Below are positions 14,673-59,387 of a stretch of 64,000 nucleotides of DNA, one piece after another. The notes beneath the pieces are model-generated. The model saw nothing but the letters and a program-made list of their open reading frames with translations. It ran no database searches and was not told where the DNA came from. The number at the start of each line of letters is the position of its first letter. Position 1 is the first letter of the stretch. The position numbers were made by a program, and so were the translations under genes. The DNA is from Minisyncoccota bacterium (GTDB lineage Bacteria; Patescibacteriota; Minisyncoccia; Phycocordibacterales; SBAW01). The stretch lies in NCBI GenBank assembly GCA_035546615.1, contig DASZWM010000006.1, positions 144,417 through 208,416 on the forward strand, in the 5' to 3' direction.

Positions 14673-14701
14673 GTCGAAGATGGGGCGATAGCGTAGCATT
14701 A

Positions 14702-19986: not shown

Positions 19987-20034
19987 ACGAAGATACTACC
20001 AAAAAAAGCCTTATATAGCTTGGCAGCTACTGTA

Positions 20035-20063
20035 TTGACAAGTATAGTATTTGGGTGTATAAT
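20035..20063 (+). promoter_or_regulatory. Consensus sigma70 promoter TTGACA-17-TATAAT with extended -10 (TGTATAAT)
   Basis: Exact consensus hexamers. Near-identical cassette repeated at 63767-63795. Confidence 0.6.
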
Positions 20064-20097
20064 AGTTAGGAACGGTTCCGAAACTAAACCCTCGAAT

Positions 20098-20403
20098 ATG
20101 GAGGCTGTCTTGAACGGCAAGATATATAAGGACTCTGCTGATTTCACAACGGCCATGAAGGCGGCCGCGTGGGAAACGCAAATGATCTGGCGCGGTGCAG
20201 GCAAGCGGCGCAAGTTCAATTCTGCGGCAACCGCCGCGATACAGTTGAATCTTACCGATAGCATCGCCGTGCGCGGACTCAACGAGGAGATCGTTAAGAG
20301 CCTCCGCGCTCTTGCGTTCGATGAGCCAGACAGCGTGACGACGGACGTGGAAGTCGGTCATGCTTGGGGCGCTTATTGCCAACGCGTTCAGCAGACTGCC
20401 TGA
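20098..20403 (+). CDS. Hypothetical small protein (101 aa)
   Basis: First ATG downstream of the consensus promoter. Weak Shine-Dalgarno. Followed by a terminator. Confidence 0.45.
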   Translation: MEAVLNGKIYKDSADFTTAMKAAAWETQMIWRGAGKRRKFNSAATAAIQLNLTDSIAVRGLNEEIVKSLRALAFDEPDSVTTDVEVGHAWGAYCQRVQQTA

Positions 20404-20414
20404 ACCAGTTCGAA

Positions 20415-20462
20415 CCCCGACAGTTGTTTGCTCACGCAAACGCTGCCGGGGCTTTCGTTTTT
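20415..20462. terminator. Structured hairpin terminator between convergent genes
   Basis: CCCCG...GTTTGC-tcac-GCAAAC...CGGGG followed by CTTTCGTTTTT. Confidence 0.55.
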
Positions 20463-20466
20463 ATAC

Positions 20467-21597: not shown

Positions 21598-21603
21598 AGT
21601 GGT

Positions 21604-22710: not shown

Positions 22711-22716
22711 GATGAC

Positions 22717-27165: not shown

Positions 27166-27197
27166 ATGGGCCCATTTTAGCGCAAATACAGGCTATT

Positions 27198-27812
27198 TTA
27201 AAGGCTCTTGATGTCCTTAACTATCTCCGGAAACTGCTCTTGATTCTGGTGTTTCCTGTCTTCGAATATTCGAACGGTAGCGTTGGGAAGCAAGTTACGA
27301 TACTTCTCAAGCTCGTCGATATTTACGATAGGATCATCTTTACTGTGGTATAGGAATATCTTTCCGGCTTGTTTTTCGAATTTCTCAAGAGAGCTGGGCA
27401 GGACGAATTCGCTTACGACCCTCTGAGTCTCTCCTTTTCCGCGCATCTCAAATGGAGCTGCGACTAGAAATACTCCATTTATCTTTTTTGGGAACTCCTC
27501 TTCGGACAAGTATCTCGCCAAGAATATGCCTCCAAGCGAATGGCCTACCAATATAACTCCATGTTCTATGAAAGGAATGAATCTTTCGAACCATATCTTC
27601 CACTCCGGATATCGGGCATTTTCCTTATTGGGCATGCCGGGATATATAACCTCGTATTCATCGCCAAGGCTCTGAGGAAGCCTGCTTTTCCAGTCCCCAC
27701 CGCCTTTGAACTTATCGATATAAATCGGCTTAGTCTTGAGATTGTTAAGAAAATCCTCGTAAGTTGGAAAAGCAGAACTGCCACCATGTATGACTACAAC
27801 TTGTTTTTTCAT
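27198..27812 (-). CDS. Alpha/beta-fold serine hydrolase (YdeN/RBBP9-like)
   Basis: GHSLGG nucleophile elbow with downstream Asp/His. AT-rich gene. Confidence 0.65.
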   Translation of the reverse strand: MKKQVVVIHGGSSAFPTYEDFLNNLKTKPIYIDKFKGGGDWKSRLPQSLGDEYEVIYPGMPNKENARYPEWKIWFERFIPFIEHGVILVGHSLGGIFLARYLSEEEFPKKINGVFLVAAPFEMRGKGETQRVVSEFVLPSSLEKFEKQAGKIFLYHSKDDPIVNIDELEKYRNLLPNATVRIFEDRKHQNQEQFPEIVKDIKSL

Positions 27813-29074
27813 TATAGTATCTTATTAGCTGCGTCTAATCCTGTTGCTAAGGCTGCTTCGACAGTGGCTGCCTCTCTACCTTGATATAACGCTTCGCCTG
27901 CGAAAAATATCTTGTTATCTATTGGCTCCAAAAGTTCCGTTTTTGCTGCCGCGGTAGACGGCTTTGCGTAACTATAAGCGCCTTTTGCATAGGGGTCAGC
28001 AGACCAATTTATCACGCGAAAGTGCTTAAGCTCGCTTTGCAGCATTTCTTTCGAAACTTTCAAGATGGTTGCAAGCGTATCAAGAGAGCGACTTACCACT
28101 ATTTCGTCGCTTAACCCTTCGAATTCCTTAACCTTAGGGCCCGCAAGCCAGCCGGTAAGCATTGGAATCTCTTCCGGGTACTGCGTCCACCATGCCCCGA
28201 ACTCCTCGTTAGTAAGCAGCAATATCATCTTGCTCAGATCATGTTCATTCGCCTGTGCCCACCAGCGAGATTTGAACTTCAAGAGCACTTTTATTACGCC
28301 GCCAAATCCGATGTTTTGTGCTGCCTGGATCTTTTCCGGCTGCTCCGGCGTAAAGGAAATATTTGGCAAAATCGAAGTCGGCACGGTTACAAGGACTTTC
28401 TGGGCCTCAAATATTTTTCCATCAGAGCACGTTATTTTTATAGTGTCGGTCGATGTATCTATTCCCTGTACTACAGTATGCAACTGTATCTCTACTCCAA
28501 GTCTTTTGCACTCATTTTGTAAAAACTTCACAAGCGCTCCATACCCCTCCTTCAATTTTGCCTGCTCTCCCATGCCTTCGCTCATCCACTCGTCGCGCAG
28601 CATGTACATGCTTACTTCCGCCGGGTCGGCTGCGTCGTACCCTTCAGCCATCCGCGTTACCGCATTGCGTAGACCTTCGTATTTTTCTTCCAAAAAATGC
28701 GTATCCAGGAATTTGGCAAGCGGCATATCTTCCTCAAGGACTTTTAACTTCTCCTGCAGTGCGTCCATATCGGGAACGATAAAGGGAGCCTGCGAAAGTT
28801 CGCCGTTGCGGGCATTCCAAATTTCTCCATCGCGCACTAATACCGTTAGCCCAGCGTCTTGTGCGAGAGCCCTGGTAACAGGAGTAGCTCCGTGTATAAA
28901 CTCTGCACCGGCTTCTGCAGGAAAGCCGAATTCATCGGCAGGTAAAGTGTAAATGCGCCCTCCGACGCGATCGCGCGCTTCCAGAATAGTCACTTTCTTT
29001 CCGGCCTTCGCGAGCTCTCGCGCAGCCATAAGTCCCGCAGCTCCGGCGCCTACAATAATTACCCCAGTATCCAT
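27812..29074 (-). CDS. Flavin-containing amine oxidase / FAD-dependent oxidoreductase
   Basis: N-terminal GAGAAG Rossmann motif and amine-oxidase-like body. AT-rich gene. Confidence 0.7.
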   Translation of the reverse strand: MDTGVIIVGAGAAGLMAARELAKAGKKVTILEARDRVGGRIYTLPADEFGFPAEAGAEFIHGATPVTRALAQDAGLTVLVRDGEIWNARNGELSQAPFIVPDMDALQEKLKVLEEDMPLAKFLDTHFLEEKYEGLRNAVTRMAEGYDAADPAEVSMYMLRDEWMSEGMGEQAKLKEGYGALVKFLQNECKRLGVEIQLHTVVQGIDTSTDTIKITCSDGKIFEAQKVLVTVPTSILPNISFTPEQPEKIQAAQNIGFGGVIKVLLKFKSRWWAQANEHDLSKMILLLTNEEFGAWWTQYPEEIPMLTGWLAGPKVKEFEGLSDEIVVSRSLDTLATILKVSKEMLQSELKHFRVINWSADPYAKGAYSYAKPSTAAAKTELLEPIDNKIFFAGEALYQGREAATVEAALATGLDAANKIL

Positions 29075-29105
29075 GTTCTAGATAAGTTTGAAAAAACTTA
29101 GGACT

Positions 29106-29480
29106 CTAGATTTTTTTAACAGTAAAGTAAGAACTAGCGACAGTCTTCTCACCAATGAGAATTTCTACATCGTAGCGACCTTCTTTCTCAACGGGGAACC
29201 CTTGAAGTCTATGTATAAATTGATGACGAAAGTTTTTTGGTTCAAAAGTTGTTGAATCCCTTCCAATTTCTTTTCCTTCACAGGAGATCCTAAATGATTC
29301 CATATATTGCTTATTTTGTTGGTCAGCCGGTATTTCAATATTGACAACAATGCACATACTGCTATGTATTGCAGGAAAGCCAGGTACATTTATAGAATCA
29401 AACACACCTCTGATATTTAATTTTTTGTCGTTCTCAGAAATTTCGGCCGAATCACACAAAAGAATGAAATTTGGTTTCAT
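29106..29480 (-). CDS. Hypothetical protein (124 aa)
   Basis: AT-rich. No recognisable motif. Confidence 0.45.
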   Translation of the reverse strand: MKPNFILLCDSAEISENDKKLNIRGVFDSINVPGFPAIHSSMCIVVNIEIPADQQNKQYMESFRISCEGKEIGRDSTTFEPKNFRHQFIHRLQGFPVEKEGRYDVEILIGEKTVASSYFTVKKI

Positions 29481-29519
29481 AAAAACTATTTTAGCATGTA
29501 AAAAAATATTTGTCTAATT

Positions 29520-30965
29520 TCATTTTATTTCCTTTTCTGTGGAACTATTCTCAGTCTCAAAAGAATTAGAAGAAGAAGGCAAGGTAAAGTCTTTCGTAGT
29601 TTGCGTTACCCCTAACTCATTGTAATCAATCTCTGGATTTGAGTTAATACGTTGATCAATCCGGTTCATATCGCGTGGGAAGGCGGACGCTTCTTTAACG
29701 TTCGCGAGGTTAAGCATTTTCATCGTGAGGCGCTCGAGCCCGGTTGAGCAGCCGCCGTGCGGCGGCATACCGTACTTGAAGGCCTGGAGATAGAAGGCGA
29801 ACTTCGCTGTGTCCATACCGCGCAATTTCATCTTCTCGATCAATTCATCGTAGTTATGGATGCGCTGCGAGCCGGAGTTGATCTCGAGCCCGCGGAAGAG
29901 GAGGTCGAAGCTACGGCTAAACTCCGGGTCCTCCGGGTCGGGGTAGGTGTAGAACGCGCGCTTCTTGGTCGGGAAGTGCGTAATAAAGATAAAGTCGGAG
30001 CTGAGCTTCTCCTTGGCGTATTGGCAGATCTGGCGCTCGTGCTCGGGCTCAAGGTCGAGCTCTCCTACTGCCTTGCCGCCGAACTCTTTCTCGATTATTT
30101 CTTGTGCTTCGCGCAAGGTGAAGGTTGGGAATGGTCCCTGCGGCAGCAGCGCCGGCTCCACCTTGAAGCGCTTCAGCGCGTCGATATGCTTCTCAGCAAC
30201 AGTCGTCGATATAGTTCGTATCACCTTCTCGAGCATCGCCATCACGTCCTTGTGCGAATCGACGAAGCCCATTTCGAACTCAAGCTGCGTCAGCTCGGCC
30301 AAATGCCGCGTCGTTGCGCTTTTCTCGGCGCGGAAGGTCTTGGCTACGGTCATCGAGCGCTCGAACGGCCCGACCATTATCTGCTTATAGAGCTGGCCGC
30401 TGGTCGCCAAGTACGCCTGCTTGCCGTAGTAGTCTTCTATCTTGAATACCGCCGCGCCTCCTTCGGCGTCGCCGCCCACCAGGACCGGCGCTTGGAATTC
30501 GGTAAAGCCTTCATCGCGCAATGCGTTCCTGAACGCGTTGACGATGGTTGCCTGCACGGTAAAGATGTCGCGCGTGCGCTCGATGCGCAGCGTGAGCGGC
30601 AGATTGTCGAAATGCGTGTCGATATTGAGCTCCGCGTCCATCGCAAACGGCAGCGAGTGCGCTTCCGAAAGCACTTTTATGCCCGTAATTTCAAGCTCGA
30701 TGTTGCCGTTGGGGACGTCGCGGCGCATCTTCTCCGGCCGCTCGTTCACCTTGCCCTCGATGCGCACGACCCACTCTTGCTTTAGCTTCTGCGCCACCTC
30801 AAGCACCTCCGGCTTGCCGAATACGACGCCCTGTACCTTGCCGGAGCGGTCGCGGAAGTCGAAAAAGGCCATCTTGCCCTGGTTGCGCGCGACATCCACC
30901 CAGCCGCCGATGGATACGGTTTCTCCGATATGCTTGCTCAAATCTCCAATTAAAGTCCGTTCCAT
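29520..30965 (-). CDS. aspS: Aspartyl (or asparaginyl) tRNA synthetase, class IIb, with unusual AT-rich C-terminal extension
   Basis: N-terminal OB fold. Motif 2 FRAE, motif 3 GGCSTGLERL. AspRS type 2 versus AsnRS cannot be resolved by eye. The last ~50 codons are Ser/Asn/Glu-rich and encoded by AT-rich DNA. Start trimmed to MERTLIG. Confidence 0.75.
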   Translation of the reverse strand: MERTLIGDLSKHIGETVSIGGWVDVARNQGKMAFFDFRDRSGKVQGVVFGKPEVLEVAQKLKQEWVVRIEGKVNERPEKMRRDVPNGNIELEITGIKVLSEAHSLPFAMDAELNIDTHFDNLPLTLRIERTRDIFTVQATIVNAFRNALRDEGFTEFQAPVLVGGDAEGGAAVFKIEDYYGKQAYLATSGQLYKQIMVGPFERSMTVAKTFRAEKSATTRHLAELTQLEFEMGFVDSHKDVMAMLEKVIRTISTTVAEKHIDALKRFKVEPALLPQGPFPTFTLREAQEIIEKEFGGKAVGELDLEPEHERQICQYAKEKLSSDFIFITHFPTKKRAFYTYPDPEDPEFSRSFDLLFRGLEINSGSQRIHNYDELIEKMKLRGMDTAKFAFYLQAFKYGMPPHGGCSTGLERLTMKMLNLANVKEASAFPRDMNRIDQRINSNPEIDYNELGVTQTTKDFTLPSSSNSFETENSSTEKEIK

Positions 30966-42150: not shown

Positions 42151-42360
42151 TTACATTCTCCTGGTGATCCTGCCCTTTCCCCCGTAGGGGTCAAGCTTGA
42201 CCGTCACCTTGTCGCCTACCAGGACCTTTATCCGGTGAAGGCGCATTTTGCCGGCCAGGTACGCAAGAATAGTTTCGCCCCCATCAAGGTTGACCTTGAA
42301 GAGGGTGTTTGGGAGCGCTTCTTCGACTACTCCCCCTACTTCCTTATCCGACGTATCCAT
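42151..42360 (-). CDS. infA: Translation initiation factor IF-1
   Basis: S1-like OB fold, 69 aa. Confidence 0.85.
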
Positions 42361-42425
42361 TAGCGACAGCGTTTTCTATAGTAACAAGTAGGCCCGCGGA
42401 TGTCAATTTAGCCCTGAGCGGAGCC

Positions 42426-43727
42426 CTACTTTTGGGTGCCGGAAACCACGGTTATCTTGTCCGGATCGGCCGGGAAGCTCCCCTGCCAGAACGGACGGAC
42501 CTTCGCCTCGGCGCGGCTAATGGCCGGCGCGAACGACTCAACTATGGCCTGGAAGGTGTCTTTTTTCTTGCCTACCAGCGCCGCTTTGAGGCCCGCCTGG
42601 TCGTACTGCCATACGAGGGTCGGGCTGCCGCCGAGCGTTATCGTAATATCCGCTCCCGGTTTCGTAGTGGTCGCGGCCGCAAGCGTCAGCTGGGAAACGT
42701 CCGCAAACGCGACCGGTTCGCCGTTGTAGGCGGACACTGAAGCGCGCGCGACAGCGGCGGCGAGCGCATCCACCTTCACTATGGCGCCCGTCATCGTTGC
42801 CGATTGCGCAAGAGTGGCGTTATTGGCGCCCGCGGGCGTCTGCGATGTATTGCTGAAGGTCAGCTGGAGGCTTCCGGGAATGACGACGTAGTCTGCGGGG
42901 ATCTGGGAGGTAAGCGAGGACTGAGCCGCCTGGCTCAAGCCCTGCTTGAGCGTGTCGGTGCCGCGGGCAAGATCGGCAGACGCGACGGACGGCTCCGGCC
43001 CGACATATCCGCCGGAAATCGCCGAGGCCTGGGCATAGAACTTGTCGTAGCGCGGGTCGCTCTTGAAGCCGGGGATAGTGAAGCGCGTCTCGCCGCGATT
43101 GTACGCCTCGCCAGGCGAGTCCGCGTAGACGGTGGCGGTGGCCGAGCCGGGGGTAATAGTGCCGTCTGCGGCCTTCGTGCCGCCCGGTACCACGACGGAA
43201 TCATGAATGCGGTAGATCTTGCCGTCCGGAGCCTCGAAGCGCGTATTGGCGATAAGGCGCTGGACATCGGTTCCCGCGGCATTGTAGATGGTGATGACGC
43301 CGGAGGCGCTGCGCGACACCTGCTTGGTGCCCGAGGCCGTAACGGTGGTGCTTGCCGAGCGCGTAACGGTCATCGTCTCGTAGCCGAGCTCGCCGCCCGC
43401 GGGATGCAGTTTTGCGGTAAGGGTAGCGGGCGGTGTTACCGGTTCCTGCTTCGGATACACGGTAACGGTCGCCCCCGCGAAAAGGGTCGAAAGGAGGAGG
43501 CCGGCCAGAGCGCACACCACGACGACCGCGGCTGCGATTATCACGAACAGGCGGCGGTTGCCCCGCGGGTGGCGGCGTATCATAGCAGGGCGTTCTTGGG
43601 GCATAGGGGTATCGATTTCGTCGTCCATATCCTGCGCGGGCGCGGCGCCGGTTTCGTGCCGGCGGCGCGAGGGAGATACCGGGATGTTTCGGATAGAACG
43701 TCGCTCCGGGGGCACCATGTCGCGCAT
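42426..43727 (-). CDS. Hypothetical membrane-anchored protein (433 aa, single TM, Thr/Ser/Ala-rich ectodomain)
   Basis: Basic cytoplasmic N-terminus, one TM helix, low-complexity extracellular region. Confidence 0.5.
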   Translation of the reverse strand: MRDMVPPERRSIRNIPVSPSRRRHETGAAPAQDMDDEIDTPMPQERPAMIRRHPRGNRRLFVIIAAAVVVVCALAGLLLSTLFAGATVTVYPKQEPVTPPATLTAKLHPAGGELGYETMTVTRSASTTVTASGTKQVSRSASGVITIYNAAGTDVQRLIANTRFEAPDGKIYRIHDSVVVPGGTKAADGTITPGSATATVYADSPGEAYNRGETRFTIPGFKSDPRYDKFYAQASAISGGYVGPEPSVASADLARGTDTLKQGLSQAAQSSLTSQIPADYVVIPGSLQLTFSNTSQTPAGANNATLAQSATMTGAIVKVDALAAAVARASVSAYNGEPVAFADVSQLTLAAATTTKPGADITITLGGSPTLVWQYDQAGLKAALVGKKKDTFQAIVESFAPAISRAEAKVRPFWQGSFPADPDKITVVSGTQK

Positions 43728-43773
43728 ACGTATAAGTAATTATACCGTAAATTTTTTGCCCGCCTAGGGCTTA

Positions 43774-44748
43774 TCAGGCGTAGCGTGACTTATCCACAAA
43801 AAGGGCCTCCAGCATAAGGGGCAAGTCAGGCCGCGCCCCGTGCCCGCCCATGAACGGCTGCGCGTGCCCAGTACGCACCGCGCGCACGCTGGCCCCGTCC
43901 TGAAAGAGTTCCGAAAGCGAGTCGTTGTCGCCGAGCGCGCGGGCGAACCACGTCTCGGAAAGCTGGGGCGCCAAAACGAATACGCTCTGCGCCGGAGCGA
44001 CCCTGAGAAGCGGCTTGGCGACATCCGCGAACTCTTCCGCAAAATGGGCGGCCGCGTGGCGCAGCGGCTCCGGGGCCGGATGGCCACTGGCCCCGCGGCC
44101 TTCAAGGCTCAGATACGAGCGGGCCTCCTCCGGGCTCATGCCGCCGTGGGATATGAGCGTCCGCAGCAGCGTGTGGAGGCCCAGCGGCAGGGTCGCGCGG
44201 GCCTTCAGGGAGTTGTCGGCGACAAGCAGGAGCTCTGTCGCCTCCCCGCTCACGATGCATATAAGCGCCGGCCCTTCATCGGGAAAAAACGACAGCGCTC
44301 CGTGCAAGGCGGCGGCGCCGTATGGGTGCAGGCTCAGCTTCTGCTCGCCCAAAGTCGCCCGCGCCGCCGAGCGCAGCGTATCGCGCATATGCGGCATGAA
44401 GGTCGGGGTTCCCGCAAGTTCTATAGAGGCCCACGGGACGGAAAAGAACCCGGCAATATGGGCTACCTCGCCCTCGGTGCCGAGCGTTTCGTGCAGGCGC
44501 ATGCGGGACGAAACCTCGCTTATGTGCGCGAGAGCTTCCTCAAGCGCCTTTTCCGTCTGGCGCGCCAGCAGCGCCGGATTATGGGTGCGCGACAGCGGCA
44601 AGAGGACGCGCTTTTCGGCGAACAGGCGCGGCGCCTCGCCGGGTGCAAGGCGCACGAGCGCCGCGGCAACGCTGCCGTTCTCGATATCGGCTATCGCGAC
44701 GGTCTTGCCTGCGCGTTTTTTCTTCCCGAACATAAAATAAGTATACAC
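43774..44748 (-). CDS. Hypothetical protein (324 aa); possible actin-like ATPase fold (FtsA/PilM-like)
   Basis: N-terminal VAIADIENGSVAAALV resembles the phosphate-1 motif of actin-like ATPases. Low confidence. Confidence 0.4.
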   Translation of the reverse strand: MYTYFMFGKKKRAGKTVAIADIENGSVAAALVRLAPGEAPRLFAEKRVLLPLSRTHNPALLARQTEKALEEALAHISEVSSRMRLHETLGTEGEVAHIAGFFSVPWASIELAGTPTFMPHMRDTLRSAARATLGEQKLSLHPYGAAALHGALSFFPDEGPALICIVSGEATELLLVADNSLKARATLPLGLHTLLRTLISHGGMSPEEARSYLSLEGRGASGHPAPEPLRHAAAHFAEEFADVAKPLLRVAPAQSVFVLAPQLSETWFARALGDNDSLSELFQDGASVRAVRTGHAQPFMGGHGARPDLPLMLEALFVDKSRYA

Positions 44749-44879
44749 CCTGTCGGCGCGCGCGTTTTTTATAGTATGAAAAGCAAAAGGGCACCTGACG
44801 GTGGGTATTGCAGAATCATTTCTGATCGCGCGTGCACCACCAGGTGCCCGGATAGGTTACGGAATATCAGCCGTTTCGA

Positions 44880-45290
44880 CTACGTCGCCTGCTTCCTGTC
44901 CCGGCTGAGCCGGTCAAAGAAGACGCTCCCATCCTCGACGAAATTCGCGAGGAAGACGATCAGCGCGATAACGAACGCGCTGACGAAGGGATTGGTAAGC
45001 CCGTTTCCGACCGTGAGGTCGACCATGCCGGCGTAGAGGCCAAGCAGGAGGATCTCGGCATAGGTGACCAGCCGAAGCGCGATTCCGCCGACGGATGTTG
45101 CAGCCTGCGAGTTACCCCGCACGACCCTGACACCCAGAACGACGAGACCGGCGACGATGAGCACCAGACCGATACCGAATTGGACCGACCATTCCTGATA
45201 GCCCGGAATCGCCCGACCCAGAGGGTAGAACGAGAGGGCGATGAGGAGAGCGGCGACGTTGTAAAATACGAGCTTGCCTTGGTTTGGCAT
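44880..45290 (-). CDS. Hypothetical membrane protein (136 aa, 4 TM)
   Basis: Start trimmed to MPNQGK (GGAAAGG Shine-Dalgarno upstream). Promoter/operator dyad upstream. Confidence 0.5.
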   Translation of the reverse strand: MPNQGKLVFYNVAALLIALSFYPLGRAIPGYQEWSVQFGIGLVLIVAGLVVLGVRVVRGNSQAATSVGGIALRLVTYAEILLLGLYAGMVDLTVGNGLTNPFVSAFVIALIVFLANFVEDGSVFFDRLSRDRKQAT

Positions 45291-45431
45291 TTTCGTAAAA
45301 CCTTTCCTTACCAGAGTTACGTTACTTGGAACGAACAAACAACCGTTCCATATACTATTATATCATATATGCCTGTCTGATGTCAAGAACCTAAAAAAAG
45401 AGCTGTGCAGCTAGTTACCGTAGCGTAGCGC

Positions 45432-45472
45432 AAAAAAGAAAGCGTCCGGCAATGGATTGCCGGACGCTTTGG
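45432..45472 (-). terminator. Rho-independent terminator (15-bp stem)
   Basis: AAAGCGTCCGGCAAT-gg-ATTGCCGGACGCTTT followed by TTTTTT on the minus strand. Confidence 0.8.
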
Positions 45473-45803: not shown

Positions 45804-47681
45804 TTATTCAAGCACCGCTTTTATGCGGCGGACACCCGCGGAAACGGCTTCTTCTTTGAGTATCTTGAATGTTCCCGACTCTGAAAGTTGCCCCGTATGC
45901 TCTACATGCGGCCCGCCGCAGAACTCTATCGAAAACGCGTGGTCGAGCGGGCCAATGGAATACACTGAAACGCGCTCCGGATATTTGGCGCCGAACTCGT
46001 GCTCGGCGCCGAGCTTCTCCGCCTCTTCCTTCGGCATCTCAGTGCGAACGACCTGCATATCCTCTTTTATTTTCTCGTTCACGATGCGCTCCACCTCTTT
46101 TTTCTGCTCGTCGGTCATCTTAGCGCCCCAGTTAAAGTCGATGCGGAGGCGCTCCTGCGTGATGTTGCTGCCGCGCTGATGGACCTCGGGGCCAAGCACG
46201 GTCTGAAGCGCTTTGAGGAGGAGGTGGTGCGCGGTGTGAAGCCGCGTCGTCTTCTCGCTGGTGTCAGCCAGGCCGCCCTTAAACTTTTGTTCTGATCCGG
46301 CACGGGAAAGGTCCTGATGCTGGCGCAAAAGTTCTTTGAAGCCTTCGGTATCTATCTGCTTGATGCCCTTCTCCCCCGCTTCTTCAAGTATGAGCTCAAG
46401 CGGAAAGCCATAGGTCGTAACAAGCTGGAACGCGTCCTGCGCCGAAAGGTTGCCGTGGCCGGCGAAGCGCTCGAGCTCGCGCATGCCACGGGCGAGCGTG
46501 GTGCGGAACCGGGCCTCCTCGTCGGCAATAGCTTTCTCGATGCGCTCGCGCTGTTCGCCTACTTCCGGGTAGCTGTCCTGATACATATCGGCGACCGCGC
46601 CGACTATCTGGAAGAGGGCGCCCTCATGCAGGCCGAGCTTATCGGCATAGCGCACCGAGCGGCGCAGAAGGCGGCGGACGAAATATCCCTGGTCGGTATT
46701 GGACGGCTGGACTCCCGCGGCGATAAGAAATACCGCGGCCTTGGTATGGTCGGCCACGATGCGGAACGCTTTTGTCTCTTGCGGATTCTGACCGTAGGCT
46801 TTGCCCGTTGCGCCCGCGAGGAAATGGACGATAGACGCATGCGCGGCGATAAAAATGTCGTTGACGTCGCGTTTGGCCATCGCGATGCGCTCAAGGCCGC
46901 CGCCGAAATCCACGTTCTGCTTCGGGAGAAGCGCGAAGGAGCCGTCCTCTTTCTTTATATATTGCATAAAGACCGAGTTCCCTATCTCAAGGAAGCGGCC
47001 GCAATCGCAGTTAGGATGGCATTCCGGGCCGAATTTGGTGTCATGCGGCGTGCCGAAGTCATAAAATACTTCCGAGTCAGGTCCGCCCGGCTCGCCCGCA
47101 GGCATCTTGTCCGGAGTGCCTGCTCGGGACCACCAGTTCTTCTTTGCGTCGTAGTAAAAGATGCGGCCGCCTTGCATGCCGACCTGGTAGCCGTTCTCTT
47201 CAGAGCCTATCTCAACTACTTTCGCTTCAATGCCTTTGTCGCCAAAGAGCTTCTTCCAAATCTCCGCTGATTCGGTATCGCGCGGAACATTATTTTTTTC
47301 ATCACCCAGGAAGGCCGTTACATACAGCTTCTGCGGGTCGAGCCCGACGACGCCGGTCAGGAACTCGAAGAAGAACGGCAATTGCTCATCCTTAAAATAA
47401 TCGCCGAGGCTCCAGTTGCCGAGCATCTCGAAGAAGGTCGTGTGGCGGTTGTCGCCTATCTCCTCTATATCGCCGGAACGGAAGCACTTCTGCGAGTCTA
47501 CAAGCCGCGTACCCGCCGGATGGTTCTTGCCGAGCAAGTACGGAACGAGCGGCTGCATGCCTGAACCGGTAAAGAGCGTGGTCGGATCGTTCTCGGGCAC
47601 CAAAGAAGAGCTCGGGATGACCGTGTGCCCTTTTGACTTGAAGAATTCAAGGTATTTCGACCGCAACTCGTTGAGCTCCAT
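45804..47681 (-). CDS. alaS: Alanyl-tRNA synthetase, short form lacking the C-Ala domain
   Basis: Class II AlaRS catalytic core plus editing domain (HxxxH ... CGGPHV). 625 aa, versus ~870 typical. Confidence 0.85.
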   Translation of the reverse strand: MELNELRSKYLEFFKSKGHTVIPSSSLVPENDPTTLFTGSGMQPLVPYLLGKNHPAGTRLVDSQKCFRSGDIEEIGDNRHTTFFEMLGNWSLGDYFKDEQLPFFFEFLTGVVGLDPQKLYVTAFLGDEKNNVPRDTESAEIWKKLFGDKGIEAKVVEIGSEENGYQVGMQGGRIFYYDAKKNWWSRAGTPDKMPAGEPGGPDSEVFYDFGTPHDTKFGPECHPNCDCGRFLEIGNSVFMQYIKKEDGSFALLPKQNVDFGGGLERIAMAKRDVNDIFIAAHASIVHFLAGATGKAYGQNPQETKAFRIVADHTKAAVFLIAAGVQPSNTDQGYFVRRLLRRSVRYADKLGLHEGALFQIVGAVADMYQDSYPEVGEQRERIEKAIADEEARFRTTLARGMRELERFAGHGNLSAQDAFQLVTTYGFPLELILEEAGEKGIKQIDTEGFKELLRQHQDLSRAGSEQKFKGGLADTSEKTTRLHTAHHLLLKALQTVLGPEVHQRGSNITQERLRIDFNWGAKMTDEQKKEVERIVNEKIKEDMQVVRTEMPKEEAEKLGAEHEFGAKYPERVSVYSIGPLDHAFSIEFCGGPHVEHTGQLSESGTFKILKEEAVSAGVRRIKAVLE

Positions 47682-53845: not shown

Positions 53846-54940
53846 TTATGCGGTAAGTGTAGCATTTGTTATGACCCCGCCTCCAAGGCAGCGCTCCCCG
53901 CGATACAGCACCAGCGACTGGCCCTGCGGCATGTAATGGGGTTCGTCGATGGTTACTTCCTTTCCGCCTTCAGCGAGCATCGCCGGCATCAGCGCCTGGC
54001 GATAGCGGTAGCGCGCCTCGCATGCGCCCTCGCCTCTTTCGCCGATCCAGTTGGCGTGCTCCAGGGCGACGATGGTCTTGCGCATGCCCTGCGGGAATTT
54101 CTCGGCCGAGACGGTTATCGTATTCTTTTTCGCGTCCTTGCCGATGACGTAGCGCGCCTCTTCGTGAGGAACGTCGTGATACAGCGAGAAACCGTGCCGC
54201 TGGCCGAGCGTATACAGCGCCGCTCCGCGATGCTCGCCGATGACCGCGCCGTGTTCGTCAAGCACGCTGCCCGGCTCCGGCGCCGCTTCGCGCTCCAGCA
54301 TGTCTTCTATTGATATGTCGCCGAGGAAACATAACCCCTGACTGTCGGGGCGCCTGGCATTAGGGAGGCCGAACTTCTTCGCGAGCGAGCGCACAGCCGG
54401 CTTTTCCATGGAACCCACGGGAAACAGCGTGCGACGCAATGCCTCCTGCCGCACCGCCCATAAAAAATAGCTTTGGTCCTTGTTCTTATCGGCTCCCATA
54501 TAGAGAAGCCCTTCGCGAGCCTGCGCGTAGTGGCCGGTCGCCACAACATCGGCGCCGCGGGACATGCAGAAGTCGTAAAAGGCGCCGAACTTTATCTTCT
54601 CGTTGCACAAGGTGTCGGGGTTGGGCGTGTTCCCCTTCTTGAACTCGCCAATGGACGGAAGGAACACCTCGCGCTCGTACTCCTTCGACAGGTCCACCTC
54701 GATGAACGGAATGTTGAGATGCGCGGCAACCCGCATGGCTTCTATGCGGTCGCGCGCGGCCGGGCACGGGTAGCCGGGGATCTGTATCTTTATGAAAACG
54801 CCCGTCACATCCCGGCCTTCGCGCTTGAGGAGCGCGGCGGAAACGGCGGAGTCGACTCCGCCGGAAAGGCCCACGAATACTTTCTTATTACTGGGCGGTG
54901 GTGCTTGCCGTCGTAGTAGCGGCCGTAGTAGTTGAAACAT
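53846..54940 (-). CDS. mnmA: tRNA-specific 2-thiouridylase MnmA
   Basis: PP-loop SGGVDS and MnmA catalytic Cys. N-terminal 53 nt overlap the upstream gene, so the true start may be later or non-ATG. Confidence 0.8.
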   Translation of the reverse strand: MFQLLRPLLRRQAPPPSNKKVFVGLSGGVDSAVSAALLKREGRDVTGVFIKIQIPGYPCPAARDRIEAMRVAAHLNIPFIEVDLSKEYEREVFLPSIGEFKKGNTPNPDTLCNEKIKFGAFYDFCMSRGADVVATGHYAQAREGLLYMGADKNKDQSYFLWAVRQEALRRTLFPVGSMEKPAVRSLAKKFGLPNARRPDSQGLCFLGDISIEDMLEREAAPEPGSVLDEHGAVIGEHRGAALYTLGQRHGFSLYHDVPHEEARYVIGKDAKKNTITVSAEKFPQGMRKTIVALEHANWIGERGEGACEARYRYRQALMPAMLAEGGKEVTIDEPHYMPQGQSLVLYRGERCLGGGVITNATLTA

Positions 54941-55472
54941 CAGGGGTCGGCACTATATCGATAGGAGCGGGCTCGACCGGCGCGGGCTCGTACACCGGCG
55001 TCGGCTCCGGCATGCTGAGGCCGAGCATTCCCAGGACAAGGTTTGGCTGGAAGTAGAACAAGGCGCCGAGCCCCGCTATGAGAACCACGAGAAGGATGAG
55101 GAGCATGTACAAAAGCCCGTGGCCTTTCTTTGCGGCGACCCGCGCGGTGCTGAGCTCGGAGGCGGCCATGACGGGCCGGGGCTGCATGGCGGGCGCGGTG
55201 GGCGAGCCGAATTGCCCGCCCATAGGCTGGAGCGGCGGGACATTCGGATTGGGCTGCATCGGAGGCGTAATAACGCGCGGCGCCACCGGGCCCGGGGTTG
55301 CGGGAGGAGGGGGCGGCGGAGGCGGGGTCTGCACCCCATCTATCGCCATGAACGCTTCGGCGACGTCCTGCTGGGTCCAGCCACCTTGCGCGAGCGCCTG
55401 GGTTATCGCTTCTTTTGAAAGTCCGGAGGCGCGCTGCGCGCGGACATAATCGAGGAGCTGCGGATTTATCAT
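54888..55472 (-). CDS. Hypothetical Pro-rich membrane protein
   Basis: Small N-terminal helical domain, poly-Pro, one TM, Thr-rich tail. Confidence 0.45.
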   Translation of the reverse strand: MINPQLLDYVRAQRASGLSKEAITQALAQGGWTQQDVAEAFMAIDGVQTPPPPPPPPATPGPVAPRVITPPMQPNPNVPPLQPMGGQFGSPTAPAMQPRPVMAASELSTARVAAKKGHGLLYMLLILLVVLIAGLGALFYFQPNLVLGMLGLSMPEPTPVYEPAPVEPAPIDIVPTPDVSTTTAATTTASTTAQ

Positions 55473-55481: not shown

Positions 55482-56480
55482 CTACCTCAGGTATTTCTGC
55501 TTTGCAGCCAGGTGCTGTGAATAGGTGGCGCTGTAGTACATGTTGCCGCTCGAGTCCGACAGATAGTACAGGTAGCTGGTCTCGATCGGCGTGACCGCGG
55601 CCAGTATGGCGTCCAGGCTCGGGTTGGCGATGGGCCCGGGCGGGAGCCCTTTATTAGTGTAGGTGTTGTAGGGCGAGTCCGTCTTAAGGTCGGTCTTCGT
55701 GAGCGTGTACGAGTTCTTGCCGATGATGTACGGGAATACGGCGTCCACCTGGAGCGGCATGCCGAGCTTGATGCGCTTCCAGAGAATGCCGGCAATGACG
55801 CGGCGGTCATACGTCTCAGGCGCTTCGCGCTCCAAAAGCGATGCCATCACGACAACGTCCGATAAAGGCTTTCCGAACGCGTCCAGCTGCTTCTGGATGC
55901 TCGCTATATGGGTGGCGAAATTGTTGGCGAACGCGCCAAGTATCGCGTGTGCGTCCTGCCCGGGCATGAAGAAGTACGTGTCGGGGAACAAGTAGCCTTC
56001 TTTGCCGCGCGCTTCGCGCATGAACGCGGCCAGGTCGAAGCCGGGGATGCTTTTCTGCAGCTGGGCGCCGATATCCTCCACCGTCGCGCCCTCAAGCACG
56101 CGCACGCGCGCGGGCTCCACCTCGAAGTCCCCCGCCCCCAGCCTCCGCGCGACCGACCATACGTTCTCCTTGTCGGGGAAAAAGTATTCCCCCGCTATCA
56201 CATGGTGCTGGGTGCCGGCGGTGCGCACGAGCCCCTGGAACATCCACTCGGAGCGGATGATGCCGCGGGTCTTGAGAATGTCGGCGGCCTCAGCCAAGGT
56301 CGATCCGGACGGGATATTCACGTACGCGCCGGTCGGGAACTGGAACGGCGCCGCTAAGAAAGCGAAGTATATGAGCAGAATGACGGCCGCGGTCCCGCCC
56401 GCCCAGCGCACGGGATAGCGCCGCATGCTGCGTCGCATGCGGTAGAAGATGTTCAGGAAAAAATTCTTGATGGATCGCAT
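55482..56480 (-). CDS. mltG: Endolytic murein transglycosylase MltG (YceG family)
   Basis: TM anchor plus YceG-like domain. Start trimmed to MRSIKNF. Confidence 0.75.
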   Translation of the reverse strand: MRSIKNFFLNIFYRMRRSMRRYPVRWAGGTAAVILLIYFAFLAAPFQFPTGAYVNIPSGSTLAEAADILKTRGIIRSEWMFQGLVRTAGTQHHVIAGEYFFPDKENVWSVARRLGAGDFEVEPARVRVLEGATVEDIGAQLQKSIPGFDLAAFMREARGKEGYLFPDTYFFMPGQDAHAILGAFANNFATHIASIQKQLDAFGKPLSDVVVMASLLEREAPETYDRRVIAGILWKRIKLGMPLQVDAVFPYIIGKNSYTLTKTDLKTDSPYNTYTNKGLPPGPIANPSLDAILAAVTPIETSYLYYLSDSSGNMYYSATYSQHLAAKQKYLR

Positions 56481-56490
56481 AGGAGCTGTA

Positions 56491-57891
56491 TCAGCGGGCC
56501 GAAGAGGCGCGTATGCCGGTCGGCAGGTTCGCCGGAGCTTCCGAGCGCTTGGAAGCCACGCGCTCAAGCCCCGGCGGCGCGGTCTTGGAGTTCGGGAAAT
56601 GCCATAGGGTAGCGAGCTCTTCGGTGTTCATGAATACCGGCACCTGGTCGTACGGCACGTAAAAATATGCGCGGTTCTTGTAGAACTCATAGGTCTGCTT
56701 CTTTATGTAGCGCTTGCGGATATCGTGAAAGTCCTGCCACGGGTAGTCGAATATCGCCATCCCGCGGGTCGGGTTTATCTGGTTGTAGTCGTTTGAGCGC
56801 ACCGGGTCAAACAAGCGCACGAGCGAGCCGATATTGACCGGATTGAACCGCCCTTTCTTGGAAATATACACGCCGCGCATGCCGCACTCGAACGTGAGCT
56901 TGCCCATGGCTTTCTCTATCGCCTCCACCCGGCGGCGCTCCGACTCGGTCAAAAGCGTGAGCCCGCGCGCCTGCGCCTGCGCCTGCTTTTCGGGGTCCTC
57001 GCCGACCAGCTTCTTGGCGCGCTCCCCCGCCACTTTGACCATCTTGTCTATCTCGGCCTTGCCGCCGTCCTTGTAGTGATCGTGCTTGTAGTCGTAGAAC
57101 CCGAACCATTCGTCTTTCTTGCGGGCCTTCATGATTATCTGGAGCCATAAGTACTCGCCTTCGCCCACATGCGAGAAATATTCCAGGATATTCGTTATCG
57201 GGTCCACCTGAATCTCGGGCGTATCCGGATTCTTGTCGAGCGCGTAATCCACGTAGGTCTTTATCGGCACCGCGCCGGCCTGCGCCTTGGAGTATTCGGT
57301 GCCCCACAGGTCGTAGTCGTCCAGGTTGAAGTTGACCTTTGCGGCGTAATCTTCCGCAAGCGTTATTTTCGCCTCGGGGTACTGGCCGTACAGGCGCGCT
57401 TCGATGACGTTGCGCCAGCTCTGGCGCGTGTGGATGTAATAGCTCACGCGGCCCTCGTTGGATGCGATCTCCAGCGCCCATACTGGCCGGAACTGGCCCT
57501 TCCAGATGCGCGCGATGAAGGTGCTTTCGCCGCCGGAGTTCCACAGGGTGGTCAGGAAGAGCTCCATCGAGAGCGGGGATTTTTCCACTTCGGGCGGCAG
57601 CTGCACTTCAAGCAGGATATGCTCCTGCGAGAACCAGAACTGGAAGCGGATGTATTCGATCCAGCTCGTCCAGAAGAAGCTCACGATGAAGAGGGGCACC
57701 CACACCGGCGAAATGGCGGCGGTCGCAAGCGCCGCCGCCTTGACCGCGGCCGGGTCCACCGACAGCGCGGCTACGAGGAAGATGACGAACGCGACGGGCG
57801 CCACGACCAGAGCCTCGATATGGTAGCCCGCCAATCCGATCTTCAGGCTGTCGTCATTGCCGAACTTATGCGACCACTCGTGGAACAGCAT
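56491..57891 (-). CDS. Hypothetical membrane protein (466 aa), unknown family
   Basis: N-terminal TM segments followed by a large soluble domain. No motif recognised. Confidence 0.5.
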   Translation of the reverse strand: MLFHEWSHKFGNDDSLKIGLAGYHIEALVVAPVAFVIFLVAALSVDPAAVKAAALATAAISPVWVPLFIVSFFWTSWIEYIRFQFWFSQEHILLEVQLPPEVEKSPLSMELFLTTLWNSGGESTFIARIWKGQFRPVWALEIASNEGRVSYYIHTRQSWRNVIEARLYGQYPEAKITLAEDYAAKVNFNLDDYDLWGTEYSKAQAGAVPIKTYVDYALDKNPDTPEIQVDPITNILEYFSHVGEGEYLWLQIIMKARKKDEWFGFYDYKHDHYKDGGKAEIDKMVKVAGERAKKLVGEDPEKQAQAQARGLTLLTESERRRVEAIEKAMGKLTFECGMRGVYISKKGRFNPVNIGSLVRLFDPVRSNDYNQINPTRGMAIFDYPWQDFHDIRKRYIKKQTYEFYKNRAYFYVPYDQVPVFMNTEELATLWHFPNSKTAPPGLERVASKRSEAPANLPTGIRASSAR

Positions 57892-58343: not shown

Positions 58344-59387
58344 TTATTTTACCAGGATGAACTTGTTGTCCTTGCCGCGCTTGAAATATTTCTGGTTCTG
58401 GAGGTTCACTGCGACGGTGCCCGGCTTCACATGGCGCTCCTTGAGCACCTTCTCGATTATCTGATCCTTGGTCAAGGGGCCCTGCTCGCGCAGGATATTG
58501 CGGATGACGTCGCGCACGACGCCGGAGGCATAGCCCCACTCCTTGAGCGCGTACATGCCGCGGCCAACGAGCACGAAGCGGTCGTCCTTGATGAGTTCGT
58601 TGTGGGTCGTCGCTACGTGCGCGGCGCGATTGAACATTTTTTCGATGAGCTGCGATACTTCGCGGAAGTGAAGCGGCGAGCCGTGCTTCTTAACGGCAAG
58701 GTACGCATAGTCGCGCACGCCCTTGGTCTTTACGTTCGGAGACGCGGAGTGGCCCCACTCGCCCAGCGGGTTCTTGCCGATGCGCTTGGAGATGGAGAGC
58801 CAGCGGCGCAGGACCTCGTCGTTGCGGTGCTTGTCGTTGATGTCCTGGAGCTCCTTGAGGAAGCGGTCGATCATCTCGCCTTCCGGGATGAGGTCCTCGT
58901 CGGAAAGGCCCTCGTACAGGCGCTTCAGCGCGCCCTCTACCTTGTCGGCCAGGCCCGGGTCCACGTACCAGCAGCGCTCTACTTCGTCATCCTCCTTGCG
59001 GTATTTGAACGGGTCGCCGAGCACGAGCAAAAAGTAAATGTGGTTCTGGAGGCCCTGGTCCTTCGTTATGAAATCAAGCAGGTCCTGCTCGCAGACGATG
59101 CCGCCGAGGGAATCCACAATGCGCTCAAGCTCGTGGAATGCGGCATTTGCCTCGGCAAAAGAAGGAGATTTCTTAAGTGCGGCAAGGGCGTGGTTCTCTA
59201 TCTGGCGGACGCGCTCGCGGGTAATGCCCCAGCGCTTGCCGATCGCCTCAAGCGTGACCTTCTCGGTATTGGTGCCGAGGCCGAAGCGGGCCTCAAGGAC
59301 GGTGCGGGAACGCTCAGGGAGCGTCGTGAGGAGTTTCTTAACTATCGCCTTGGGCTTAAAGCCCGTTTTGTCCCCTGTTTGTGGCAT
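58344..59387 (-). CDS. Sigma-70 region-4-like HTH domain protein with large C-terminal domain of unknown function
   Basis: N-terminal LPERSRTVLEARFGL...TLEAIGKRWGITRERVRQIENHAL matches sigma70 region 4. No regions 2 or 3. Confidence 0.55.
   Translation of the reverse strand: MPQTGDKTGFKPKAIVKKLLTTLPERSRTVLEARFGLGTNTEKVTLEAIGKRWGITRERVRQIENHALAALKKSPSFAEANAAFHELERIVDSLGGIVCEQDLLDFITKDQGLQNHIYFLLVLGDPFKYRKEDDEVERCWYVDPGLADKVEGALKRLYEGLSDEDLIPEGEMIDRFLKELQDINDKHRNDEVLRRWLSISKRIGKNPLGEWGHSASPNVKTKGVRDYAYLAVKKHGSPLHFREVSQLIEKMFNRAAHVATTHNELIKDDRFVLVGRGMYALKEWGYASGVVRDVIRNILREQGPLTKDQIIEKVLKERHVKPGTVAVNLQNQKYFKRGKDNKFILVK

What the first reader, a model, noticed from the sequence alone, without database searches (positions are those of the whole stretch)
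42426..44748. Two unknown genes occupy the position normally held by secY-adk-map upstream of infA
The cluster infA-rpmJ-rpsM-rpsK-rpsD-rpoA-rplQ is intact. In place of the usual upstream genes are a 324-aa protein, with a possible actin-like ATPase phosphate-1 motif (VAIADIENGSVAAALV; FtsA/PilM-like guess), and a 433-aa single-TM protein with a Thr/Ser/Ala-rich ectodomain. The two are co-directional and separated by 46 nt. Candidate for a membrane-associated assembly or division-type pair carried with the ribosomal operon.
Basis: inference. Interest (0 to 1): 0.5.

Follow-up and report, generated by a model that had tools for sequence, protein, structure and literature searches.

The report
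Degenerate FtsA-like protein with membrane partner
Two conserved but unannotated genes of an ultra-small "candidate phyla radiation" bacterium encode a stripped-down relative of the cell-division protein FtsA and a membrane-anchored partner whose outer domain looks like a phage baseplate protein. Together they are probably a previously undescribed cell-envelope module.

Summary
Two co-directional minus-strand ORFs (A 43774-44733/44748; B 42426-43727; 46-nt gap) lie between alaS and infA-rpmJ-rpsM-rpsK-rpsD-rpoA-rplQ. There is no secY, adk or map in the window.

B has a conserved cytoplasmic N-terminal peptide (RSIRNIP), one TM helix, and an ectodomain resembling baseplate-J wedge proteins and the GlxA barrel.

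The pair is not a local oddity. alaS-A-B-infA occurs in 71 of 74 informative Paceibacteria species loci.

Longer A forms keep a 1C-like insert. They grade into an FtsA-like protein with intact ATP motifs (P0340). That protein also sits after alaS and before a B-like gene (52/52 loci), usually followed by ruvX-mltG and often mreB-mreC-pbp2.

Best reading: an FtsA-derived, probably non-catalytic scaffold plus a bitopic partner, working on the cell envelope. A-B binding and the cellular process are inferred, not shown. I rate it a new variant of a known kind, with moderate to high interest.

The parts
43774..44733 (-). Gene A: 319-aa (324 from the upstream GTG at 44748) FtsA/PilM-type actin-fold protein, short form without the 1C subdomain
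44713..44733 (-). A N-terminal hydrophobic-basic tail MFGKKKR (F and G nearly invariant). Possible remnant of an amphipathic membrane-targeting helix (MFKKLFKKLGK in P0340).
   Evidence: Conservation. The membrane-binding role is inference.
44653..44700 (-). A phosphate-1-like strand-loop VAIADIENGSVAAALV (degenerate: DIENGSV versus DIGSGSV in long forms and DIGT in P0340)
44338..44442 (-). A residues 103-137: short stub (two mini-strands and one helix) where FtsA/PilM and the long A forms carry the ~75-85-aa 1C subdomain
   Evidence: Secondary structure. Split profile matches in ~400-aa relatives. Alignment A3 and hhalign to FtsA.
44221..44256 (-). A phosphate-2-like segment IVSGEATELLLV (Asp lost; GGG replaced by SGE; E169 and E172 invariant)
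43728..43773 (-). 46-nt A-B spacer, with a TATAAT-like box 13 nt before the B start
   Evidence: Sequence. No function tested.
42426..43727 (-). Gene B: 433-aa bitopic membrane protein (N-in)
   Evidence: ORF. More than 660 homologues. AF2 pLDDT 83.9.
43677..43727 (-). B cytoplasmic N-terminal peptide MRDMVPPERRSIRNIPV (S11, I12, R13 invariant). Candidate docking peptide.
   Evidence: The docking role is inferred by analogy with FtsN and PilN.
43479..43550 (-). B transmembrane helix (residues 60-83)
   Evidence: Hydropathy. AF2 helix 58-80.
42429..43478 (-). B ectodomain, baseplate-J/GlxA-barrel-like. Most conserved motifs: QRLIANTRFEAPDGKIYR (43209-43262), ADSPGxxYN, TRFTIPGFKxDPRY (43047-43088), WQYD, RPFW.
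42378..42406 (-). Sigma-70-like promoter match (TTGACA-17-TACTAT, TG) in the 65-nt B-infA gap. Suggests infA can be transcribed on its own.
   Evidence: consensus match only
42151..42360 (-). infA, the downstream neighbour (context, not part of the module)
   Evidence: Pfam eIF-1a E 6e-21
44880..45338 (-). 152-aa multi-pass membrane ORF between alaS and A. Not conserved in relatives. Preceded by a 12/12 consensus promoter (45357-45386) and a 14-bp-stem terminator (45439-45470).
45804..47681 (-). alaS (short 625-aa form), the conserved upstream neighbour of the pair

Best explanation
A and B form a two-protein transmembrane module derived from an FtsA-family protein and its bitopic partner.

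Shown:
- A has the FtsA/PilM actin fold. In this clade it has lost the 1C subdomain and the canonical phosphate-2 and adenosine motifs.
- B is N-in, single-pass, with a folded baseplate-J/GlxA-like ectodomain.
- The two genes stay adjacent across two deep clades.
- In the deeper clade they sit next to ruvX-mltG-mreB-mreC-pbp2.

Inferred:
- A is a non-catalytic scaffold held at the inner face of the membrane. Two things would hold it there: its basic-hydrophobic N-terminus, and docking of B's invariant cytoplasmic peptide (RSIRNIP). This is how FtsA binds FtsN and PilM binds PilN.
- B's ectodomain, like baseplate-J wedge proteins, makes an oligomeric platform on the outer face.
- The module links the cytoplasm to cell-wall growth or division, rather than to pili or translation.
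For: Fold of A:
- pLDDT 93.8.
- Profile of A aligns in register with E. coli FtsA over 243 columns (E 1.3e-4) through phosphate-1, the 1C insert and phosphate-2.

Evolutionary chain:
- The A profile finds 1833 cluster representatives.
- These include ~400-aa forms with a ~75-aa insert at the 1C position. Their best NCBIfam or Pfam hit is sub-threshold ftsA.
- P0340 has DIGT, DIGGGTTD and CGGGSG motifs. It scores TIGR01174 ftsA E 2.9e-37 against pilM E 2e-9. It hits long A forms at 1e-14.
- P0340 lies after alaS and before a protein whose ectodomain is homologous to B (hhalign 97.9%, E 3e-13).

Fold of B.

Pairing:
- A is directly upstream of B in 71 of 74 informative GTDB species loci. The same holds in L001-L006 and L087.
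- A B-like gene follows the FtsA-like gene in 52 of 52 metagenome loci.
- One 855-aa A-B fusion ORF exists.

Context in the P0340 clade: RuvX 38/50, MltG 41/45, MreB 18/37, MreC 15/32, PBP2 13/26.

Peptide: invariant S-I-R in B's N-terminus, conserved across both the short-A and long-A clades.

Precedent: the N-terminal peptides of FtsN and PilN bind the IA-IC cleft of FtsA and PilM (PMC7613929).
Against:
- The RSIRNIP motif persists in three loci with no adjacent A (L079, L081, L082). It is missing in about seven loci that keep A. It did not change when 1C was lost. So motif and A do not strictly co-vary.
- In the window's own clade no elongasome genes are adjacent. mltG lies 10 kb upstream.
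- The fusion ORF could be an assembly artefact. A B-infA fused call (P0087) shows that such calls occur.
- Gene neighbourhood is only circumstantial evidence for the process.
- I could not check whether these genomes also carry a canonical ftsA next to ftsZ.
Confidence: 0.5

Rival explanations
1. A is this lineage's one and only FtsA, the true Z-ring tether, radically reduced. B is its divisome partner and replaces the roles of the FtsA membrane helix and of FtsN/FtsQ.
For: - FtsA structures are the best fold matches.
- ftsA is the best, though sub-threshold, family for long forms and for P0340.
- The window's dcw fragment (dac-mraY-ftsW-murG, 20.4-24.7 kb) is not followed by ftsQ/A/Z.
- No other FtsA-like gene is present in the 64 kb.
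Against: - It is never next to ftsZ in about 170 loci.
- Even P0340 scores below the TIGR01174 cutoff (128.6 against 175.85 bits).
- There is no C-terminal amphipathic helix in the window's A.
- 1C, the FtsN-binding and self-interaction domain, is deleted.
- Patescibacteria, Paceibacteria included, are reported to express annotated cell-division genes, ftsA among them, though not resolved by class (PMC9938205).
Confidence: 0.2
2. The pair is a PilM-PilN-like (or, when fused, GspL-like) alignment subcomplex of a type IV pilus or secretion machine.
For: - The partner has PilN-like topology: a short conserved N-terminal peptide, a TM helix and an ectodomain.
- The fused form has GspL-like architecture.
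Against: - No pilB/T/C/D or pilin genes occur near the pair in any locus.
- PilM_2 (PF11104) and TIGR01175 do not match A. Both match P0340 far worse than ftsA does.
- hhalign to PilM gives only 8.6% probability.
- B's ectodomain is baseplate-J-like, not the ferredoxin-like PilN/PilO fold.
- CPR bacteria already have canonical PilM/N/O co-localised with pilB/T/C (PMC6744442).
Confidence: 0.1
3. B is a domesticated phage or contractile-injection-system baseplate protein. The locus would then be a prophage remnant, a phage receptor or a defence module.
For: Baseplate wedge proteins (Mu gp47, A-1(L) gp31, XM1 gp16, diffocin, PVC, AFP) dominate the fold hits.
Against: - There is no sequence-level Baseplate_J match.
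- No other phage or CIS genes are nearby.
- The position is fixed and housekeeping-like in at least 245 species genomes.
- The protein is TM-anchored and its closest hit is the cellular protein GlxA.
- GC content and GC3 are the same as in the neighbours.
Confidence: 0.04
4. The region is lineage-specific filler: disordered or pseudogenised ORFs with no function.
For: No family annotation for A.
Against: - Both ORFs are intact.
- Fold predictions are high-confidence.
- Sequence conservation is strong: 16 invariant columns in A and 36 in B.
- Synteny is conserved in more than 130 loci.
Confidence: 0.01

Closest known systems
FtsA (with its bitopic partner FtsN), bacterial divisome
   Same: - Same actin-fold topology with no 1B subdomain.
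- Long relatives carry an insert at the 1C position.
- ftsA is the best sequence family for long forms and for P0340.
- The logic is the same: a cytoplasmic actin-like protein is paired with an N-in single-pass protein whose short N-terminal peptide is conserved.
   Different: - The window's A has no 1C, no C-terminal membrane-targeting helix, no GGG phosphate-2 motif and no GG adenosine motif.
- It is not next to ftsZ or ftsQ.
- The partner's ectodomain is baseplate-J-like, not a SPOR domain.
- Scores fall below every curated FtsA threshold.
PilM-PilN (type IVa pilus alignment complex) and the fused equivalent GspL
   Same: - PilM has no membrane helix of its own and is held at the membrane by PilN's conserved N-terminal peptide.
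- A natural A-B fusion mimics GspL architecture.
   Different: - No pilus genes are in the neighbourhood.
- No PF11104 or TIGR01175 match.
- The partner motif is RSIRNIP, not INLLP.
- The partner ectodomain has a different fold.
MreB-RodZ / MreC elongasome
   Same: - An actin-fold protein is coupled through a bitopic protein to extracytoplasmic wall synthesis.
- In the deeper clade the pair lies immediately upstream of ruvX-mltG-mreB-mreC-(mreD)-pbp2.
- The N-terminal amphipathic tail of P0340 resembles the MreB-type N-terminal membrane helix.
   Different: - Those same loci encode a separate genuine MreB.
- B is unrelated to RodZ or MreC.
Baseplate J family wedge proteins (T4 gp6, Mu gp47, P2 gpJ, T6SS TssF)
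   Same: B's ectodomain aligns structurally with these proteins over up to 360-380 columns. The barrel domain shows about 20% identity.
   Different: - B is a cellular, TM-anchored protein in a housekeeping locus.
- No Pfam Baseplate_J hit.
- No tail or baseplate partner genes.
- Domain orientations differ (TM-scores ~0.2).
GlxA (Streptomyces membrane-anchored radical copper oxidase), domain 2, Pfam PF21110
   Same: - PF21110 matches 36 of 40 B homologues.
- GlxA is also N-terminally membrane-anchored and acts in cell-envelope glycan deposition.
   Different: B has no beta-propeller catalytic domain and no copper site. Only the accessory barrel is shared.

Membership tests
Actin/ASKHA fold superfamily | Two RNase-H-like domains (IA, IIA) with the beta-beta-beta-alpha-beta-alpha-beta-alpha core and a connecting C-terminal helix | tested here: met
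   [not shown]
FtsA | Sequence match above the curated thresholds (TIGR01174 175.85 bits; PF14450 31.8 bits) | tested here: not met
   The window's A has no hit at E<=1. Long forms score 18-44 bits and P0340 scores 128.6 bits on TIGR01174. P0340 and P0319 do pass PF14450, at 62.5 and 36.2 bits.
FtsA | 1C (SHS2) subdomain inserted in IA in place of 1B | tested here: not met
   1B is absent, as in FtsA. Only a ~35-residue stub remains at the 1C position in the window's A. The ~400-aa relatives keep a ~75-aa insert that aligns with FtsA 1C.
FtsA | Intact nucleotide-binding motifs (phosphate 1 DxG[ST], phosphate 2 DxGGGT, adenosine GGxxxxG) | tested here: not met
   The window has DIENGSV, IVSGEATE and LAPQLSE. 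Long forms have DIGSGSV, DVxGEVTE and no GG. P0340 has all three motifs.
FtsA | C-terminal amphipathic membrane-targeting helix | tested here: not met
   A ends 7 residues after the last core helix (PDLPLMLEALFVDKSRYA).
FtsA | Genomic linkage to ftsZ/ftsQ and binding of the FtsZ C-terminal peptide | tested here: not met
   No FtsZ within the window or within 7-10 kb in about 170 related loci. FtsZ binding itself cannot be tested with these tools.
PilM | PF11104 / TIGR01175 match, and location in a pilMNO(PQ) cluster | tested here: not met
   No match for A. No pil genes in any locus.
PilM | Binds the conserved N-terminal peptide of a bitopic partner in the IA-IC cleft | not testable with these tools
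   A conserved partner peptide exists, but no complex prediction was possible. The precedent is described in PMC7613929.
Baseplate J (PF04865 and relatives) | Sequence match to the family, and a role as a wedge subunit beside gp25/gp7-like genes | tested here: not met
   No Baseplate_J hit in 40 homologues at E<=1. The neighbours are alaS and infA. The resemblance is at fold level only.
GlxA beta-barrel domain (PF21110) | Match at or above the gathering score of 27 bits | tested here: inconclusive
   [not shown]

The most novel reading that the evidence does not exclude
A is the sole FtsA-family protein of these Paceibacteria. Under this reading the Z-ring/membrane tether has been rebuilt. FtsA would have lost its 1C subdomain, its membrane helix and its nucleotide site. 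It would work only as an adaptor clamped to the membrane by a baseplate-J-like bitopic protein. That protein would form a ring-shaped platform outside the membrane and couple to MltG and the elongasome. This would be a divisome architecture not seen in any studied bacterium.
Probability: 0.15. Interest if true: 0.8.

Novelty: new variant of a known kind. Interest (0 to 1): 0.55.

Why it matters
Patescibacteria (CPR) make up a large share of bacterial diversity, yet almost nothing is known about how their tiny cells build and divide their envelope.

This pair has four notable properties:
- It is present in hundreds of species: at least 245 GTDB species, and 1833 clusters at 50% identity.
- It is invisible to Pfam and NCBIfam.
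- It is genomically fixed.
- It descends from an FtsA-like gene that sits beside mltG-mreBCD-pbp2.

It offers a natural series: full ATP motifs with 1C, then degenerate motifs with 1C, then no 1C. That series shows how an actin-family protein can turn into a nucleotide-independent adaptor.

It also places a phage-baseplate-like fold on the outside of a cellular membrane, in a housekeeping role. If the module proves to be divisome- or elongasome-linked, it would fill a gap in models of CPR cell biology. It would also give a concrete annotation to thousands of 'hypothetical proteins'.

Tried and rejected
- Pfam and NCBIfam on A and on 32 of its homologues: nothing.
- PDB sequence searches with the A and B profiles, and with the N-domain of the B-like protein of L088: nothing.
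- The afdb50 fold library was not available. As a result, the distribution of the B fold outside CPR was not examined.
- I tried to walk along the source contig from the window's end genes. Those exact products are not on record. secY-adk-map could therefore not be located in this genome.
- tblastn/phmmer for SecY, Adk, Map, L15 and FtsZ in all fetched loci: none.
- The 152-aa membrane ORF upstream of A is not part of the module. It has no counterpart in related loci.
- Tat signal and translation-arrest-peptide readings of B's N-terminal motif were rejected. The motif lies 40-50 residues before the TM helix, at the very N-terminus.
- Rfam: no RNA element in or near the pair.
- Literature searches on CPR FtsA/PilM-like proteins, baseplate J in Patescibacteria, and FtsA-like plus MltG found no description of this pair.
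- The supplement of PMC9938205 lists ftsA in Patescibacteria but not by class.
Full report
**Origin and layout.** The window comes from a Candidatus Paceibacterota (Patescibacteria/CPR) MAG. The product of gene A is 100% identical to NCBI protein VHD55_03740, on a 208-kb contig. Almost all genes in this part of the window are on the minus strand. In transcription order they are ung, pepF, alaS (short, 625 aa), a 94-aa ORF, a 152-aa membrane ORF, A, B, infA, rpmJ, rpsM, rpsK, rpsD, rpoA, rplQ, rplM, rpsI, grpE, dnaK and an ABC transporter, then dnaJ.

**Observation.**
- A is 43774-44748 from GTG. The conserved MFGKKK start and the database call favour ATG 44733, giving 319 aa.
- B is 42426-43727 (433 aa), and the spacer is 46 nt.
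- The motif VAIADIENGSVAAALV is at A residues 17-32.
- B has one TM segment at residues 60-83, with a basic N-side flank, so its topology is N-in.
- B's ectodomain is 36% Thr+Ser+Ala, against 21% in housekeeping proteins.
- SecY, Adk, Map and L15 are absent from the whole 64 kb.

**What A is.** A has no Pfam or NCBIfam hit, even at E<=1, and neither do its 31 aligned homologues. A profile of the family finds nothing in PDB sequences.

The protein is, however, a reduced and degenerate member.
- There is no 1B subdomain, as in FtsA and PilM.
- Where FtsA and PilM carry the ~80-residue 1C subdomain, A has only a ~35-residue stub at residues 103-137.
- Phosphate-1 is DIENGSV.
- Phosphate-2 is IVSGEATE, with the Asp and two Gly lost.
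- The adenosine GG motif is absent.

**The family and its descent.** A profile search of 1.84 billion cluster representatives finds 1833 members, 917 of them at E<=1e-10. Many are ~400 aa and match the profile in two pieces separated by a ~75-residue insert, exactly at the 1C position. These long forms have DIGSGSVG and D-V-x-G-E-V-T-E. They give sub-threshold FtsA hits (PF14450, TIGR01174) and no PilM hits. A mixed short and long profile aligns in register with E. coli FtsA over 243 columns: phosphate-1, then the 1C insert, then phosphate-2 (E 1.3e-4). The match to PilM is much weaker.

A search seeded with the most divergent long forms reached P0340 (419 aa). P0340 has intact DIGT, DIGGGTTD and CGGGSG motifs and an amphipathic N-terminus, MFKKLFKKLGK. 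It scores TIGR01174 ftsA E 2.9e-37 (128.6 bits, below the 175.85 cutoff) against pilM E 2e-9. P0340 hits long A forms directly at 1e-14 to 1e-4.

This gives a graded series. The first step is an FtsA-like protein with full ATP motifs. The second is a long A with 1C but no adenosine motif. The third is the window's short A, with neither 1C nor a phosphate-2 Asp.

**What B is.** More than 660 homologues at about 50% identity were found. The alignment shows four parts:
- an almost invariant N-terminal cytoplasmic peptide, M-[RQ]-D-[MV]-x-P-x(2-4)-R-S-I-R-N-I-P;
- a variable charged linker;
- the TM helix;
- a ~350-residue ectodomain with very conserved motifs (QRLIANTRFEAPDGKIYR, ADSPGxxYN, TRFTIPGFKxDPRY, WQYD, RPFW).

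**The pair is conserved.** A GTDB scan with B found relatives in 245 species genomes, and 80 loci were fetched (Adler-, Kaiser-, Nomurabacteria and other Parcubacteria). alaS-A-B-infA-rpsM is essentially universal in them.

An HMM of A finds it directly upstream of B in 71 of these loci: 48 short forms and 23 long forms. Six loci are cut by a contig end. Three (L079, L081, L082) have a truncated 401-aa AlaS abutting B, with no A. The same order holds in JGI, Logan and NCBI contigs, including the complete 808-kb genome CP064958.1. One contig encodes an 855-aa A-B fusion. This may be an assembly artefact, because a B-infA fused call also exists.

**The link to the ribosomal cluster is secondary.**
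- In at least nine loci, 0.4-1.2 kb of extra DNA, or extra genes, separate B from infA.
- The window has a promoter-like site in the B-infA gap.
- In the P0340 clade the pair is not followed by infA at all.

A metagenome scan with P0340 gave 441 or more relatives, and 80 loci were fetched. Among loci long enough to judge:
- a B-like gene follows in 52 of 52;
- alaS precedes in 54 of the 81 P0340-type loci (these 80 plus L088), a count not restricted to loci long enough to judge;
- downstream come RuvX (38/50), MltG/YceG (41/45), MreB (18/37), MreC (15/32) and PBP2 (13/26).

The commonest orders are AlaS-FtsAlike-Blike-RuvX-MltG and the same extended by MreB-MreC-PBP2. alaS-ruvX-mltG is, from my own knowledge of Bacillus subtilis (alaS-yrzL-ruvX-yrzB-mltG), an old conserved arrangement. 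The pair therefore looks like an insertion into a cell-wall neighbourhood. In the window itself mltG lies 10 kb upstream (55482-56567), and a dac-mraY-ftsW-murG block lies 20 kb downstream.

**Mechanism.** Three things are shown: the two folds, the topology, and the persistent pairing with its envelope-gene context in the deeper clade.

The rest is inferred. I propose that A is a nucleotide-independent scaffold at the inner membrane face. It would be recruited by its own basic-hydrophobic N-terminus and by B's invariant N-terminal peptide. This is how FtsA binds FtsN(1-8) and PilM binds PilN in the IA-IC cleft; PilN mainly contacts the IA domain (PMC7613929). B's baseplate-J-like ectodomain would provide an extracytoplasmic platform acting with wall-remodelling enzymes.

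There are weak points.
- The motif is retained where A is not adjacent, and it is missing in about seven loci that keep A.
- Loss of 1C left the motif unchanged.
- No complex prediction was possible.
- Gene neighbourhood is circumstantial evidence.

**Rivals.**
- A sole, remodelled FtsA. This cannot be excluded, because I could not scan a whole genome. Against it: no ftsZ linkage in about 170 loci, and sub-threshold scores.
- A PilM-PilN-like pilus platform. Against it: no pil genes nearby, no PilM family match, a different partner fold, and canonical PilMNO already present in CPR (PMC6744442).
- A phage or CIS remnant. Against it: housekeeping synteny, a TM anchor, and no phage genes.
- Non-functional filler. 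This is refuted.

**Novelty.** No paper in the searchable library describes the pair. Both proteins are 'hypothetical' in every source. I rate it a new variant of a known kind: an FtsA/PilM-type protein plus a bitopic partner. Two features are unusual. One is an actin-fold protein stripped of 1C and of its nucleotide motifs. The other is a cellular, membrane-anchored baseplate-J-like ectodomain.

Noticed in passing
window 59451-62300 (-): The 949-aa leucyl-tRNA synthetase carries a NUDIX domain (PF00293, E 1.9e-12) at residues 416-522, inserted just after the editing domain. This is an unusual fusion or insertion for LeuRS.
   Followed up: no
window 12000-15000 and 27000-30000: Two low-GC patches (0.42-0.51, against ~0.59 elsewhere; GC3 down to 0.30-0.49). 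They hold a ClpP-like SDH-type serine protease (12857-13915), an alpha/beta hydrolase (27198-27812), a flavin amine oxidase (27812-29074) and a 124-aa ORF (29106-29480). These may be horizontally acquired islands.
   Followed up: no
window 20011-24677 (-): A dcw-type fragment, D-Ala-D-Ala carboxypeptidase, mraY, ftsW/rodA and murG, is followed by an unannotated 142-aa ORF and gltX rather than ftsQ-ftsA-ftsZ. An M23 peptidase with a coiled coil (EnvC-like) lies at 17376-18647.
   Followed up: partly
window 45357-45470 (-): A 14-bp-stem terminator (45439-45470) is followed immediately by a perfect 12/12 sigma-70 consensus promoter with an extended -10 TG (45357-45386), just upstream of the 152-aa membrane ORF and gene A. 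This probably marks the start of the transcription unit that holds A and B.
   Followed up: no
L005 431-2998 (P0268): An 855-aa ORF fuses a long-form A to B through a translated spacer, on a 3.2-kb ENA contig between alaS and infA. It is either a natural GspL-like fusion or a lost stop codon in the assembly. P0087 (494 aa) is a similar B-infA fused call.
   Followed up: partly
L079 5758-8335; also L081, L082: In three Parcubacteria genomes AlaS is truncated to ~400 aa (catalytic core only) and directly abuts B. There is no A gene, yet B keeps the RSIRNIP peptide.
   Followed up: partly
L088 8184-9731 and the B-like genes of L089-L161: In the P0340 clade, the B-like proteins have a ~200-residue cytoplasmic N-terminal region in place of the short RSIRNIP peptide. 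Its first ~80 residues (ILYLEIDEEVTSIVDRMK...) are the best-conserved part of the protein and match nothing in Pfam, NCBIfam or PDB sequences.
   Followed up: partly
window 54888-55472, 56491-57891, 58344-59387 (-): Three ORFs lie around mltG: a 194-aa and a 466-aa ORF with no Pfam match, and a 347-aa protein whose only hit is sigma-70 region 4 at its N-terminus.
   Followed up: no
window 45804-47681 (-) and related loci: AlaRS is a short form throughout this group (578-684 aa; tRNA-synt_2c plus tRNA_SAD, no C-terminal C-Ala domain).
   Followed up: no
window 43840-45036 (+): A 398-aa antisense ORF overlaps all of gene A and is longer than it. This is a typical high-GC shadow ORF that a naive longest-ORF caller would pick instead of A.
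   Followed up: partly
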